Below, one piece after another: positions 4,690 to 62,052 of a stretch of 64,000 nucleotides of DNA. The notes under the pieces were generated by a model. The model did not search any database. It was not told the DNA's origin and saw nothing but the letters and a program-made list of their open reading frames with translations. A program made the translations under genes and the position numbers. Within the stretch, counting starts at the first letter, position 1. Each line of letters starts with the position of its first letter. This DNA comes from Octopus sinensis (taxonomy: Eukaryota). Location of the stretch: assembly GCF_006345805.1 (NCBI RefSeq), contig NC_043011.1, positions 8,184,001 through 8,248,000 of the forward strand, written 5' to 3'.

Positions 4690-4777
4690 AGTAGTACAAT
4701 TGTTTCATGCTACTTCATTTTATTAAACACTGTAAGTATTACATCAGTTTTAAAATGTCGAGCAATCTTCAGCCACT
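4690..4777 (-). ncRNA. Minimal type I hammerhead ribozyme candidate in a Penelope-like repeat
   Basis: Minus strand: AGTGG-CTGAAGA-TTGCT-(49 nt)-AGCAT-GAA-ACAATTGT-A-CTACT. The core is intact. Helix I is AGTGG/CTACT, helix II is TGCT/AGCA, helix III is palindromic, and the cleavage triplet is GUA. Confidence 0.7.
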
Positions 4778-4990
4778 TATAGAAATTTTCCAATTAAACG
4801 GACAATGCACATTCTTATCCCTATTTCATTTGCCAACATTACAAAGAAGGTAGATATATATACATATATATTAAACTTTTCTGTGCTTATATGCTGATAA
4901 TAGACGCTAAATCGTCGAACCACATTAAGTATTTCCGCTATTATCATAACGCACGTGTCGAAACGAAGAAGCAAGCAAATAGAAATTCGT

Positions 4991-5041
4991 TTCGGTCCGA
5001 TTTCAGGATTAATCAAAGAGATATTTTCCTTCATCAGCGAA
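4991..5041 (-). ncRNA. Degenerate type I hammerhead motif
   Basis: Minus strand: TTCG-CTGATGA-AGGA-(18 nt)-TCCT-GAA-ATCGGA-C-CGAA. Helices I and II pair, but position U16.1 is A, so it is probably inactive. Confidence 0.5.
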
Positions 5042-5661
5042 GAACACCATAAAAATAAATGAAATACTAACGTATACCCACGGAAAAGCAGACACAATGT
5101 CATGAATACATCTAAGTACCCCAAATATATCGAAATAAATATTCGGTAGCAAGCCTCGACGATTTAGCGTCTATTTTCAGCTTATAGGCAAAGAAAATAT
5201 TTCCTTTGCCCTTGTTTATAATTCTGCTCATCATTTCACCTTAAAAGGTACATTTTATATGCTGGCCACTGATAAAAGTTTTAACAATTTTATCCTTTAC
5301 ATTATAAGTATACATGTATGTGTGTGAGTGTGTGTGTGTGGTGTGTGTGTGTGTGTGTGTGTGTGTGTGGCTGGCTGGTTGCTGACAAATTTTTCTACTT
5401 TAAAAAAAAGATTTTATTCTTATATATATATATATATATATATATATAAATATATATATATATATATATATATATATATATATATATATATATATATTAA
5501 TATATATATATATATATATACATACATAAACATACATACAACATACATACATACATACCTACATACATTACATACATTAATATATATATTATTTATATAT
5601 ATACATATATATACGTATAAATATATATAATATACCTATTTACACACACACGCACACATAC

Positions 5662-5822
5662 ATGACAGACTCCCATACAGTTTATGTCTACTAAATTCAC
5701 TTACAAAGCGTTGGCGATTCCGGAGCTATGGTAGATGTATAAAGTACCGCACAGTGGGGCTGAACCAGAAAACACGAGTTTGCATAGCAAGCTTCTTAAG
5801 CACATAGCTAAGCGTGCTCCTA
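5662..5822 (-). mobile_element. tRNA-derived SINE family A, 5' fragment, diverged
   Basis: Matches the head of the family A copies (e.g. 47286-47739). Confidence 0.75.
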
Positions 5823-57857: not shown

Positions 57858-59450
57858 TTACCAACTTACAACTAATTCGGTGCCAATTGAACATGTGACT
57901 TACCTGGTCACTTGCACTTCAGCGTGCGGTCTAACCCTTAATAAATCCAAATCCTGACCCTAAAGCTTTAACCTTATACCTTAGCACTTACCTTAAACCT
58001 TAGCCCAGATCAGGAAATTTCACAACGTATATCACGGATTCTGTGGTAGCCAGCACGCTATAGTAGCCCCAGTAAATCTTTCTATAATAAGCACAAGGCC
58101 TGACATTTTGTGGGAGCGGTAAGTGGGATTACATCGACCCAGGGTTCAACTGGAGCTTATTTAAAGGACCCCGAAAAATAATGATGAACACGGTGGAATT
58201 TGTACTCAGAACGTAAAACCGGAAGAAACTCCGCTAAGATTTTAGTCCCACGAGCTAACGATTGTGTCAGCTTGGGTGAAGGGGACACCATTTAATTACA
58301 TCCACCCAGCTTCTAGACTGTTACTTAATATTTTATTACCCCCAGGGTTAATAAAATAAAATATAATAAAAGCATATTTGACCTCATCAGAAATTGAACT
58401 CGCGTTGCCAAGAAACGCAACAAAAGACTACTTCAAGGTATTTTGTCCGCCAAAATAATAATGAAAACGATAATTATAAAACACTTAGAACAGTGTATAT
58501 ATATAAACCTATATATATATAGGTATGTATGTATGTAAAGAAAGAAGGAAAAAGCGGTGTACAAAAAAGAATGATGTTTGGTCAGTCAGCAATGGCGAGG
58601 TTTCTCTCTTATTTTTCCCATTGGTACTAATTTTTATGTAGATATTCGGTAAAGAGTGTGGGAAAAACTGGCTGTAAAATTTATTACTTCAAGCCTATAT
58701 AGAGATTATTATTGTTTTGCAAATTCCTCATTCTCTCTCTCCCTCTCAACTCAGGCACAGACACACACACACACACACACACACACAAACACACACATAT
58801 ATATATATATATATATATATATATATATATATATATGCGTACATGCGTCTGTACGTGTGTGTGCGTGTTTATAGTTTTCTCTGTTCCCTCTCTATCTATA
58901 TCTATGAACATACTTTTCAACACACACACACACACACACGCACACACACACACACACACACAAGCGTAAGCTCAGTCTTATGGACCTATATATCCTGCAT
59001 GTGTGTGTATGTGTGTGTGTGTGTATGGTGTGTGAGTGTAAAATGGGAAAAGAGAGAGCGAAGGATATATACACGTTCAAATACAAAATAATACCCAGGC
59101 ACTTGTACGAATACACACACACACACACTCGCAAATACACACACAAATACACACACGGGCACACCTACGGACACACACTCACGAACACACACACGCACAC
59201 ATACACACGCGTACACCACGCACATTACTGCCACAACATCCACGTGTCATCAGGACAAAAGATGAGATGGCCACGGATAGATGGTCACTGATCACAACGC
59301 CGATCACGCCTGATTGAGTTTGCAGCATGGATGTCTCTACCGAAACCCGCAAGAAATTACCATCCAAAGAGTAAAGACATTAACCCCTCCCCATCTACCC
59401 CATCCACCCCACAGACATACCGTTCTATAATGGAAATATAAAGAAAAAAG

Positions 59451-60583
59451 GGATCTTTTCCTTTTGAACGGCAGACAATTTCTAGTTAACTAAACACTTT
59501 AAAACTTCGTATACTGGTAGAATGTATCAAAATAAAACATTTTTTTCTCTTGGCTTTCTTGAGAAAATTGTGATTTATTTGTTTAACGTAGTTTAATTTT
59601 TCGAATTTTAACCAACACTATGCTCTCTTTTGAGCTAAAATCATTTGCTGCGTCTGAAACAGAGACAACATCCTGTCACTAACCCAAAACCTCCCCCTAA
59701 CCCTAACCCTAAATTTTTTTTTTCTTAATTGTTACGTGTATAAAAAAAAACTAAAGCAATGGAAAATAATTTAAACAAAATAATTCTATAATTTTATACA
59801 CACGCTTTCCGTAACACACCCTTTCCGTATACGTACGGAAAGCGTGTGTATAAAATTATAGAATTATTTTGTTTAAATTATTTTCCATTGCTTTAGTTTT
59901 TTTTTATACACATAACAATTAAGAAAAAAAAAATTTAGGGTTAGGGTTAGGGGGAGGTTTAGGGTTAGTGACAGGATGTTGTCTCTGTTTCAGACGCAGC
60001 AAATGATTTTAGTTCAATGGAGGTAATCGATTGGTTAAAATTGCCGAAATGCTCGGATTTTCAGAAGAAATATCTTACAAACTATAGAATTTTCTCAATA
60101 AAACCAAGAGAAAATGATGTTTTATAAACACACTAGCAGTATCGCCCGGCGTTGCTCGGGTTTGTAAGGGAAATAACTATAAAGCATTTTTAGAGAGTTA
60201 TAGCCAAAAAATGGAAAAGAAATGATGGTAAATTTTTTTTTAGTTATAAAGGTCGAGTTGCGTCCCCTAGACAGTCTGTGGTTTGTGTTTCTGATTCTCG
60301 ACCCCATGTCGAATTTTTCGATTTTTTTCAGAACTGGGGGAACTTTTCAAAATTTTCGCTGCGTTAGTTTTGAATTATGACATTGGGCTATGTGTGTGTC
60401 AAGTTTCATCAGAATCCGTTGAAAGCCGTGGTCAGGGTGAGGGTACAACGTGACAGACACACAGACACACACACAGACAAACTGCCGTTTATATATAGAG
60501 AGATTCTACCAGTATACGAAGTTTAAAACTTTTTAGTTACCTAGAAATTATGTTACAAACTGCCGTTCAAAAGGAAAAGATCC
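59451..60583. mobile_element. Palindromic (foldback) non-autonomous DNA transposon with internal telomere-like (CCCTAA)n/(TTAGGG)n tracts
   Basis: Termini GGATCTTTTCCTTTTGAACGGCAG and CTGCCGTTCAAAAGGAAAAGATCC. Flanks GAAAAAAG/AAAAAAAG are a probable 8 bp TSD. The arms are complementary along the whole length. Confidence 0.88.
60133..60503 (-). mobile_element. Non-autonomous Helitron inserted in the right arm of the foldback element
   Basis: Minus strand A|TCTCTCTATATATAAACGG..CCCGAGCAACGCCGGG..CTAG|T. Absent from the left arm. Confidence 0.9.
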
Positions 60584-62001
60584 AAAAAAAGTATCATCCG
60601 TCGCTATCTACGATGAGTATCTGAGTTGTTTAATCACGTGTGCCACTCATTAATTGAATATATTACTTCTGGGTACTCTACAAAATGCCATCTTCACTAC
60701 GTTATTCATTTCAGGTATGAGAAGTGTATGGCTGAATATACCTCAGTCACATGTACACTACATGTAGTCGTGCTTCGCGACTTACTACATATTAAAGTCT
60801 GACCCTTTCTAACTATTGGTAAATCCATCTTCAGTTTTAATTACTGTATGATTGAATACACCTCAGACACTTGTAATACTTACTAAAATCCTATTCATAG
60901 ATAATCATTCTTTTGTAATTACTCTTTAAGTCTTACTCATTAGTCTTACTCATTAGTCTTAGTCATATTTTCTGTCTTACCAATTTCTTCCAAAAGATTT
61001 GGACCGACATGAAGTTTGTGTAAAATATATTTGTCCAACGAACGGAACGACGGCGTAGAATCGAACCTGGGAGTCTTATACTTGCAAAGTGAATTCCTTA
61101 ACTGTTCAGCTATATCTGCGATGATGCATGATGTTATTCTGAGATGTACAATGTGTTTGAGATACCAAAATAAAATTTAAAAAAAACAAAAAAACAAAAA
61201 AAAAAGTGAGGTGAAGAGCAGAGGGAAAAGGGGGTTGTCACAGTTTGAAAGCACAGCCTCGAGCAACGTTGACGTCTAATGAATAAAAAAGTAGATTAAT
61301 ATCTTATGGCAGGAAAAGAGACAGAGAATGAGGGGGGGGGAAGAAGTAGGGAAGTCGTAAGTTATAACAAGGAACAACCAAAGAAAAAAACCGCCGTTCC
61401 ACAACCCGGCAGCTACCAGCTCCCAACACCGTGCATTACACACACACCACCAAAAAAATATATATATATATATGAAGGCAAAAATAGATTTTAAATCTTT
61501 CCAGTTAACTTATATGTACGGACAGACACACTGACGGACAGACAGGCTGACAGACAGAGAGACAAACAGTGACACAATGAAAGGTATGAGGGAATTCGTA
61601 ATGAGAGGACGATAACCTGTTTTCGTGTGTCTTTATATTTTATACGACTATTCTCTAATTTAATTATTCTATTATTTAACCATTCTATTATTCGTTTATT
61701 CCCATTATTCGTTTATTCCCATTATTCGTTTATTCTATTATTTGATTAATCTATTATGTCTCGGTTTCATTTTACTTATACGTTTATTTTTATTTTATTT
61801 TCTATTTTGTTATATTTCATCTGATTATTTTGTTTTTTGCCGAAGTAATACACAAATACAACTCACGCTAAAAGAGAAGCCCAACCACAATTCTCCCGAT
61901 TATAGTCCTTCGACTGTGGCCATCTTGGGGTTAACAAAAAAATGATAGACAGGTGTGTGTGTGTGTGCGTGTGTGTGTGTGTGTACATCGCAGCACGAAG
62001 C

Positions 62002-62052
62002 TTTGTCAGTGAACAGGTCGCGGTCTCAAAGCGACGAAAATATTTTAGCAAA
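62002..62052 (+). ncRNA. Type I hammerhead-like motif with a G3:C8 swapped core
   Basis: TTTGTCA-GTGAACA-G-GTCGC-GGTCTCAAA-GCGAC-GAA-AATATT-T-TAGCAAA. Confidence 0.5.

What the first reader, a model, noticed from the sequence alone, without database searches (positions are those of the whole stretch)
4690..62052. Many unrelated short repeat families each carry a minimal, dimer-type hammerhead ribozyme
Seen: at least seven hammerhead-shaped motifs (4690-4777, 4991-5041, 6967-7004, 10114-10150, 29577-29632, 47026-47060, 62002-62052). They lie in about six repeat families with unrelated flanks and different helices, mostly embedded in (TA)n/(CA)n tracts. Six of the seven have a self-complementary or near-self-complementary helix III with little or no loop (ACAATTGT, ACTCAGAGT, ACGT twice, ACAGTTGT, AATATT); the 4991 copy has the decayed ATCGGA. 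Established: Penelope-like elements and non-LTR retrozymes carry minimal type I hammerheads that cleave as dimers through a palindromic helix III. Inference: this genome hosts a diverse, dense (about one motif per 10 kb here) population of non-coding ribozyme-bearing retroelements that could produce self-cleaved or circular RNAs. No Penelope ORF is present in the window.
Basis: partly seen in the sequence, partly recalled or inferred. Interest (0 to 1): 0.75.

Follow-up and report, generated by a model that had tools for sequence, protein, structure and literature searches.

The report
Penelope retrotransposon ends with variant hammerheads
The seven motifs are real hammerhead-shaped RNA sequences; five of their seven repeat families are (one through a close sister family) the cut-off ends of protein-coding Penelope-like jumping genes and one is a short non-coding relative, so most copies are likely inert leftovers of a known kind, though some families carry unusual catalytic-core letters whose self-cutting is untested.

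Summary
All seven motifs exist and belong to seven repeat families (F1-F7) with hundreds to thousands of candidate copies. Family majorities are well-formed type I hammerheads with unrelated helices and a palindromic helix III; only 2 of the 7 window copies are canonical and intact. The 'non-coding retroelement/retrozyme' reading mostly fails. F3 and an F6 sister subfamily form both terminal repeats (pLTRs) of intact Penelope-like (PLE) ORFs of 727 and 1008 codons, and F1, F4 and F7 lie in line behind PLE endonucleases. Copies show PLE signatures: (TA)n targets, two 3' ends, inverted 5' arms, near-neutral decay, no tandem arrays. F2 alone is a non-coding ~485-bp head-to-tail unit (retrozyme-like), with a helix III stable as a monomer; F5 stays unlinked. 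Unusual cores occur in ORF-linked copies: G3:C8 (F7), A6U (F4), U4C (F3, F6 subfamilies). I found G3:C8 in print only as a lab mutant; this scan noted it before on other DNA of this genome and others. About 95,000 intact-looking motifs are extrapolated genome-wide. Cleavage, expression and circles are untested.

The parts
4654..4864 (-). F1: 3' pLTR fragment of a Hydra-type PLE; intact canonical minimal hammerhead at 4690-4777 (core CUGAAGA, helix III ACAAUUGU, predicted cut after 4695)
   Evidence: same-strand GIY-YIG about 870 nt upstream in L060/L244, with a 3' UTR shared by L051, L055, L058
4873..5310 (-). F2: non-coding ~485-bp head-to-tail unit; direct arm 4873-5160 (-), inverted arm 5158-5310 (+) that runs from unit end into unit start; hammerhead 4991-5041 damaged (U16.1A, deletion behind it)
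5907..6376 (+). Decayed, frameshifted remnant of a Hydra-type PLE ORF (RT end, thumb, start of endonuclease)
   Evidence: profile of 60 homologues: best stretch E 1.4e-7 in a 600-nt local search, about 1e-4 among all loci
6929..7139 (.). F3: fold-back PLE insertion in (TA)n; inverted arm 6929-7008 (-) holds the reported motif 6967-7004 (core CCGAUGA, U4C); direct arm 7009-7139 (+) has lost the first core strand; both strands fold into one long hairpin
   Evidence: -105 and -107 kcal/mol; same motif in both pLTRs of 727-aa ORFs
10026..10177 (-). F4: pLTR fragment of a Neptune-type PLE; hammerhead 10114-10150, family core CUGUNGA (A6U), this copy also U4C and G5A
   Evidence: endonuclease 880 nt upstream in L012; sister family behind a 712-codon frame in L309
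29500..29888 (-). F5: PLE-like end fragment, parent ORF not found; hammerhead 29577-29632, family core CUGAUGA and helix III ACAGCUGU, this copy G8U
46953..47105 (+). F6: pLTR fragment of a Neptune-type PLE; intact canonical minimal hammerhead 47026-47060 (core CUGACGA, helix III ACGU, predicted cut after 47056)
   Evidence: sister subfamily at both ends of 1008-codon frames in L379, L380 and behind the endonuclease in 13 of 20 loci
61990..62134 (+). F7: pLTR fragment of an RT + GIY-YIG PLE; hammerhead 62002-62052 with swapped core pair G3:C8 (GUGAACA), 7-bp helix I (two pairs broken in this copy), helix III AAUAUU
   Evidence: ORF, 3' UTR and G3:C8 motif in line in L399 and L400

Best explanation
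The motifs are hammerhead sequences in the terminal repeats (pLTRs) of several Penelope-like retrotransposon families, left behind as short 5'-truncated insertions in TA microsatellites, and most genomic copies are likely inert. Shown: the link to RT + GIY-YIG ORFs for F1, F3, F4, F7 and an F6 sister subfamily, (TA)n targets, two fixed 3' ends 30-90 nt apart, inverted 5' arms and near-neutral decay. Inferred from the Anolis element (PMC11167929): the PLE protein starts reverse transcription at two sites about 40-170 nt downstream of the ribozyme and mostly copies uncleaved RNA, so even very short abortive copies include the hammerhead; that is why many unrelated short repeats each carry one. 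Inferred from PMC4209133: in a full or partial-tandem parent transcript two motifs pair through the palindromic helix III and cut slowly, probably with help from the element's protein. Lone copies like these lack a same-family partner on the same strand in the window, or are trapped in a hairpin. F2 is a non-autonomous derivative whose whole unit is ~485 bp and is likely mobilised in trans.
For: pLTR-ORF-pLTR with F3 at both ends in 3 of 3 fetched loci. F6-type motif at both ends of two 1008-codon frames and behind the endonuclease in 13 of 20 loci. F7 in line behind RT and GIY-YIG in 2 of 5 fetched loci, 90% alike over 1.7 kb. F1 and F4 each in line behind an endonuclease in 1 of 30 loci, with UTR shared by other copies. 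Two 3' ends: F1 16 and 14 of 30; F7 12 and 18 of 30; F3 direct vs inverted arms 64 nt apart; loose (TA)n ends 67 nt apart in two public runs. Inverted partner at the 5' end: F3 24, F2 18, F1 9, F5 8, F7 6, F4 0, F6 0 of 30. Helix I pairs 4-7 bp in 6 of 7 families vs 4 bp or more in 2 of 42 swapped-arm controls. Helix III cannot close or barely closes as a monomer in 6 of 7 families. Core mismatches 45/1698 vs helix II 89/3480, helix III 19/666, 3' flank 258/6640.
Against: F5 was not linked to any ORF. The F1 and F4 links rest on one locus each. The F6 link is through a sister subfamily (69-85% alike). Hit lists were the 30 best matches to the window copies, include the window copy and a few overlapping pairs, and so favour young, complete copies. 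The core is slightly better kept than the 3' flank (2.65% vs 3.89%, Fisher p 0.016), which leaves room for weak selection or a subfamily effect. Dimer helix III is very weak for F7 (-0.2 kcal/mol) and F4/F6 (-1.7), so dimer cleavage is far from assured. No cleavage was measured. No Rfam hammerhead model matched.
Confidence: 0.85

Rival explanations
1. The families are non-LTR retrozymes: non-coding units transcribed as multimers, cut by the hammerhead, circularised and re-inserted by a PLE protein.
For: Fits F2. Its unit end runs into its start in 24 of 30 junction-selected loci and in the window's own inverted arm; two loci (L408, L411) cover the ribozyme twice head-to-tail; no ORF lies in the unit; helix III closes as a monomer (-3.9 kcal/mol). 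Retrozymes are reported as PLE derivatives (bioRxiv 10.64898/2026.07.22.740005).
Against: Five families continue into long UTRs and ORFs. A second same-strand copy within 1.5 kb was seen in 15 of 210 loci and no array longer than two units. F2 copies are old (68-86% alike to the window copy). 5' ends do not pile up clearly at the predicted cut.
Confidence: 0.12
2. In these PLEs the hammerhead fold is kept mainly as an RNA pairing or protein-binding module; cutting is weak or dispensable, which is why cores drift (U4C, A6U, G3:C8, G3:G8).
For: Variant cores sit in ORF-linked and high-copy families: F7 GUGAACA 45 of 55, GUGAAGA 6; F4 group A6 in 0 of 20; F3 group U4 and C4 both common; F6 group CCGACGA 22 and CUGACGA 18 of 44. 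Hammerhead mutants did not affect insertion by the Anolis element in vitro (PMC11167929). A6 and U4 changes lower activity (PMC3088659).
Against: The 3:8 position stays paired when it changes (G3:C8 here, U3:A8 in two other families), and GAAA, G5, A9 and the UH site are kept across dozens of unrelated families. That pattern is expected from selection on catalysis. It is compatible with the best explanation on origin and differs only on function.
Confidence: 0.25
3. The motifs are chance matches in AT-rich, repeat-rich DNA.
For: A strict descriptor finds only 2 of 7, and one shuffle reached 2. No Rfam hammerhead match.
Against: Family majorities repair the defects of the window copies; helices differ but pair; 7 hits in 200 kb of unselected DNA vs mean 0.2, max 1 in 30 shuffles; fixed place in PLE termini.
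Confidence: 0.01

Closest known systems
Minimal type I hammerheads (min-HHR) in pLTRs of metazoan Penelope-like elements (Cervera and de la Pena 2014, PMC4209133; read parts 1-2 of 4 and searched 2 supplementary files)
   Same: CUGANGA/GAAA/UH core, extra nucleotide after A9, short helix I, palindromic helix III, several unrelated consensus families per genome, mostly solo copies of truncated PLEs, some in opposite-strand pairs, a few within full elements.
   Different: Majority cores G3:C8 (F7), A6U (F4) and U4C (F3, F6 subfamilies); the paper's text names only U3-A8. The extrapolated density (about 95,000) exceeds the 2,000-9,000 per genome quoted there.
Hydra and Neptune clades of C-terminal GIY-YIG PLEs (Craig et al. 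2021, PMC8557442; read section 11 and passages)
   Same: F3 parent: RWK, DKT (23 of 24 matches), CxxC and CxH, no CCHH, (TA)n targets, tail, inverted 5' copy. F4/F6 parents: CX2-5CxxC linker and CCHH-type endonuclease.
   Different: The Hydra CxCX5C linker is complete in only 3 of 27 copies of the F3 parent. 3' UTRs are long (1-3 kb) and microsatellite-rich. No tree was built; the clade of the F7 parent is open.
PAc (Poseidon of Anolis carolinensis) hammerhead and tail mechanism (Frangieh et al. 2024, PMC11167929; read parts 1-2 of 4)
   Same: Two reverse-transcription start sites that give two 3' ends, AT-rich targets, hammerhead close to the ORF start, uncleaved RNA as template.
   Different: There C3G/G8C is an engineered partial rescue; here it is the natural majority of F7. 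Tails here reach 60-90 nt.
Non-LTR retrozymes (Cervera and de la Pena 2020, PMC7229834, passages; Li et al. bioRxiv 10.64898/2026.07.22.740005, parts 1 and 3 of 5)
   Same: F2: non-coding head-to-tail unit of a few hundred bp with a type I hammerhead and a stable helix III, with PLE-like insertion features.
   Different: F2 is slightly longer than the 150-450 bp quoted, occurs as 1.2-2 units not long arrays, and is old; no circles shown. The other families are not tandem units.

Membership tests
Minimal type I hammerhead of PLEs | CUGANGA, GAAA and UH core in type I order | tested here: met
   Canonical in the majorities of F1, F2, F5, F6 and ORF-linked F3; variant in F4 (A6U), F7 (G3:C8) and C4 subfamilies
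Minimal type I hammerhead of PLEs | Helices I and II pair, with different letters in different families | tested here: met
   Helix I 4-7 bp in 6 of 7 family representatives (3 bp in the F2 one) vs 2 of 42 swapped controls; dozens more families
Minimal type I hammerhead of PLEs | Palindromic helix III that is unstable as a monomer | tested here: met
   6 of 7 families: closing energy +5.4 to -0.7 kcal/mol or no pair possible; F2 is the exception at -3.9
Minimal type I hammerhead of PLEs | Self-cleavage as a dimer | not testable with these tools
   Needs in vitro transcription; a pile-up of 5' ends at the cut was not clear
Rfam hammerhead families | Score at or above a gathering threshold | tested here: not met
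   0 matches of any family in window, L241, L379, L399, L411; no hammerhead at E up to 10 at 46990-47100
Penelope-like element pLTR | Motif-bearing repeat flanks or follows a single RT + GIY-YIG ORF | tested here: met
   F3, F6 sister (63), F7 (65, 66, 85), F1 (44), F4 (66, 69); not found for F5; absent from the F2 unit
Penelope-like element pLTR | Tail (two 3' ends), 5' truncation, inverted 5' partner, microsatellite target | tested here: met
   no second 3' end or inverted partner seen for F4, no inverted partner for F6
Hydra clade (F3 parent) | RWK, DKT, no CCHH, CxCX5C linker | tested here: inconclusive
   RWK and DKT present, CCHH absent; linker complete in 3 of 27 copies; no phylogeny
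Non-LTR retrozyme | Non-coding head-to-tail units, each with a hammerhead | tested here: not met
   Not met for F1, F3-F7; met up to about two units for F2
Non-LTR retrozyme | Expression as linear and circular monomer RNA | not testable with these tools
   No raw RNA reads were offered

The most novel reading that the evidence does not exclude
In this genome's Penelope-like elements the hammerhead core is free to take forms thought crippled or seen only as lab mutants (G3:C8, A6U, U4C) in families that made thousands of copies, because the element's protein chaperones an RNA dimer joined by the palindromic helix III. That dimer would be the paired template from which the dimeric protein copies the direct and inverted arms. 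F7 would then be a natural G3:C8 ribozyme, and F2 a monomer-cleaving circular parasite of the same machinery.
Probability: 0.2. Interest if true: 0.7.

Novelty: new variant of a known kind. Interest (0 to 1): 0.4.

Why it matters
The main finding is an expected by-product of Penelope-like transposition and shows why such genomes are strewn with hammerhead motifs that need not make any ribozyme RNA. What adds something is a natural panel of core variants in elements with intact or recently intact ORFs, including an F3 parent with several open 727-aa frames and canonical and U4C subfamilies side by side. This makes an open question directly testable: whether PLE hammerheads must cleave for the element to move. 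Standard descriptors and Rfam models miss these variants, so counts of genomic hammerheads are likely too low.

Tried and rejected
Rfam: the whole-window E-value scan was swamped by microsatellite matches to miRNA models, with no hammerhead among the 150 of 418 rows listed; gathering and narrow scans were blank. Pfam gave no family for the 727-aa ORF, so RT and GIY-YIG were called from motifs and from homologues (1709 proteins at E up to 1e-20, some with PF26215, PF28514 or PF01541). Expression: no RNA holder listed; the contigs laid showed no intron-like or circle joint that I can interpret. In vivo cut footprint: 5' ends of incidental copies fell within -3..+2 of the cut in 4 of 49 F2 and within 0..+1 in 2 of 52 F3 copies, no more than neighbouring bins, and BLAST breaks blur the ends. 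Apparent ORF links rejected as chance neighbours: F7 in L065 (the endonuclease there has its own hammerhead and a (TA)n boundary), F2 in L185 and L189, F4 in L290 (separated by (TA)n). Within-family covariation was not pursued, because copies are young and decay after insertion; cross-family pairing was used instead. CUGAUGA..GAAA at 47854 and 60412 has no helix I or III and failed the descriptor. Luense et al. 2017 on dimer-cleaving PLE hammerhead variants is not held, so it is recalled only by its title as listed in PMC6765202.
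Full report
Observation. All seven stretches are present. The window lies in a 2.72-Gb animal assembly; earlier notes call it octopus-like, which I did not test. A strict type I descriptor recovers 2 of the 7 (4690, 47026), against mean 0.25, max 2 in 20 local shuffles, so the single copies are weak evidence by themselves. 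Each motif, however, belongs to a repeat family. First-look candidates, which are not copy numbers, were F1 (4690) 1876, F2 (4991) 152, F3 (6967) 634, F4 (10114) 3185, F5 (29577) 1528, F6 (47026) 622 and F7 (62002) 1238; 30 loci of each were kept. These are the best matches to the window copy, include that copy and a few overlapping pairs, and favour young complete copies.

Family structures. The majorities are complete hammerheads. Cores and helix III: F1 CUGAAGA, ACAAUUGU; F2 CUGAUGA, AUCGG-AA-CCGAU; F3 CCGAUGA or CUGAUGA, ACUCAGAGU; F4 CUGUNGA, ACGU; F5 CUGAUGA, ACAGCUGU; F6 CUGACGA, ACGU; F7 GUGAACA, AAUAUU. The families are unrelated except F4 and F6 over the ribozyme. Helix I pairs 4-7 bp in 6 of 7 representatives (3 bp in the F2 one); swapped arms reach 4 bp in 2 of 42. 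Helix III cannot close or barely closes in a monomer for six families; F2 closes at -3.9 kcal/mol. The intermolecular duplex is good for F1, F2, F3, F5 (-6 to -12) and weak for F4, F6 (-1.7) and F7 (-0.2). Four window copies are damaged against their family (F2 U16.1A; F4 U4C and G5A; F5 G8U; F7 helix I), and the F3 motif is the inverted arm of a hairpin of about -105 kcal/mol. A descriptor with variant cores, chosen after seeing the families, found 3 motifs in the window (0 in 30 shuffles) and 7 in 200 kb taken at round coordinates on 16 contigs (shuffles mean 0.2, max 1). That extrapolates to about 95,000 intact-looking motifs (Poisson range 38,000-196,000; clumping widens it). Over 1.45 Mb of loci it listed dozens of further helix sets around the same core. 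No Rfam hammerhead model matched.

Link to Penelope-like ORFs. One F3 locus ran straight into an RT. Searching with it gave 141 scored matches, several with 727-aa open frames. The F3 motif lies about 165 nt before the frame and again about 1 kb behind it in 3 of 3 loci fetched, a pLTR-ORF-pLTR unit of about 3.35 kb with an inverted 5' copy. The protein has RWK, DKT (23 of 24), CxxC and CxH and no CCHH, as described for the Hydra clade (PMC8557442 section 11); the linker is complete in 3 of 27 copies. F1 follows a related endonuclease by about 870 nt in 1 of 30 loci, with the UTR shared by three more. F4 follows a Neptune-type endonuclease in L012, and a 72% sister follows a 712-codon frame. 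An F6 sister subfamily (69-85% alike) flanks two 1008-codon Neptune-type frames at both ends and follows the endonuclease in 13 of 20 loci. F7 extends upstream through a microsatellite-rich UTR to RT and GIY-YIG in 2 of 5 loci fetched, which carry the G3:C8 core. F5 was not linked. The window itself has a decayed Hydra-type ORF remnant at about 5907-6376.

Insertion signatures. (TA)n follows the 3' end in F3 27, F1 22, F6 22, F4 18, F7 15, F5 9 and F2 6 of 30 loci. Two 3' ends occur in F1 (16 and 14), F7 (12 and 18), F6 (5 and 24) and F3 (direct vs inverted arm). An inverted partner abuts the 5' end in F3 24, F2 18, F1 9, F5 8, F7 6, F4 0 and F6 0 of 30. Two public runs of unstated kind show loose (TA)n ends at the same two F3 positions, 67 nt apart, and summed contig depth about a hundredfold higher on the pLTR than on the ORF (not a copy number). 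These match the tail, inversion and target features in PMC8557442 and the two RT start sites of PMC11167929. A second same-strand copy within 1.5 kb was seen in 15 of 210 loci, with no longer array. In six families (F2 left out as too diverged), non-CpG mismatches to the majority were core 45/1698, helix II 89/3480, helix III 19/666, helix I 60/1600 and 3' flank 258/6640 (core vs flank p 0.016); CpG sites ran at 6-11%. This is close to neutral decay of dead copies, with selection visible only between families.

F2 is different. Its unit end runs into its own start in the window's inverted arm and in 24 of 30 junction-selected loci. The unit is about 485 bp with no ORF, and copies span 1.2-2 units, two of them covering the ribozyme twice. 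It is a non-autonomous PLE derivative and fits the retrozyme idea (PMC7229834 passages; bioRxiv 10.64898/2026.07.22.740005 parts 1 and 3), although circles were not shown.

Variant cores. Census over distinct copies in all loci: F7 GUGAACA 45 of 55, GUGAAGA 6; F4 group U6 in 19 of 20 and A6 in none; F3 group CUGAUGA 33, CCGAUGA 21, CCGACGA 9 of 71; F6 group CCGACGA 22, CUGACGA 18 of 44. C4 occurs in ORF-linked F3 (L313, L328) and F6-type copies. In print, U3-A8 is known from PLEs; natural U4C (viroid) and A6C (phage) are known, with low activity (PMC3088659 section 8 and passages); C3G/G8C appears as an engineered partial rescue. Searches and two supplementary files of PMC4209133 (a third file could not be searched) gave no natural G3:C8 or A6U. 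Luense et al. 2017 could not be read and may cover them. This scan had already noted G3:C8, U4C and the same overall reading on other DNA of this genome and others; my reading was written before those look-ups.

Mechanism. Shown: origin in PLE termini, target and end pattern, decay. Inferred: reverse transcription begins just downstream of the ribozyme on mostly uncleaved RNA, so short abortive copies keep the motif; slow dimer- or protein-assisted cutting belongs to the parent transcript; lone copies here have no same-family partner on the same strand in the window. A clear pile-up of 5' ends at the cut was not seen.

Verdict. A real feature of a known kind, with new core variants and one retrozyme-like family. 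Interest 0.4.

Noticed in passing
In 3 copies matched by a pattern, helix II 16/18, the extra helix 20/21 (with a compensatory change), helix III 13/15 and helix I 12/15 positions pair; 25 BLAST hits in the loci. It resembles the split-core permuted motif of earlier notes on this genome.
   Followed up: partly
window 18245-18312 (-): Second permuted hammerhead-like motif in the order cut-site strand, GAAA, CUGAAGA, like type SGC of PMC10085705 (passages). Helix I differs but pairs in related copies (UCGC/GCGA here, UCGCC/GGCGA in L412, UUGUCC/GGACAA in L067; 7 hits).
   Followed up: partly
L329, L337, L348, L376, L117, L205, L266 and others: Many further minimal-hammerhead families with long perfect palindromes in helix III, U4C in at least three more families and U3:A8 in two.
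   Followed up: no
L241-L243, L217, L223, L226; L379, L380: Young PLE families with several open frames (727 aa Hydra-type, 96-99% alike; 1008 codons Neptune-type), likely recently active; useful for biochemistry.
   Followed up: partly
window 22488-22604 (-), 35803-35849 (+), 47178-47268 (+), 56137-56195 (-): Ribozyme-less 3' end fragments of F1-like, F6, F7 and F4 families, as expected from 5' truncation.
   Followed up: no
L354, L366, L374, L378, L399, L400: The 3' UTRs of the F6-type and F7 parents are 1-3 kb and built largely of (CA)n and (TACA)n tracts, so some microsatellites beside the motifs are part of the element and not the target.
   Followed up: partly
window 47764-47930 (+) and about 60330-60450 (-): Two copies of another repeat with CUGAUGA and a distant GAAA but no hammerhead helices; it resembles Helitron-associated short elements (recalled, not tested).
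   Followed up: no
window 2-1382 (+), 16364-17424 (-), 34161-34653: LINE-like ORF fragments by eye and a 190-bp unit repeated 2.6 times that looks like a SINE end (recalled).
   Followed up: no
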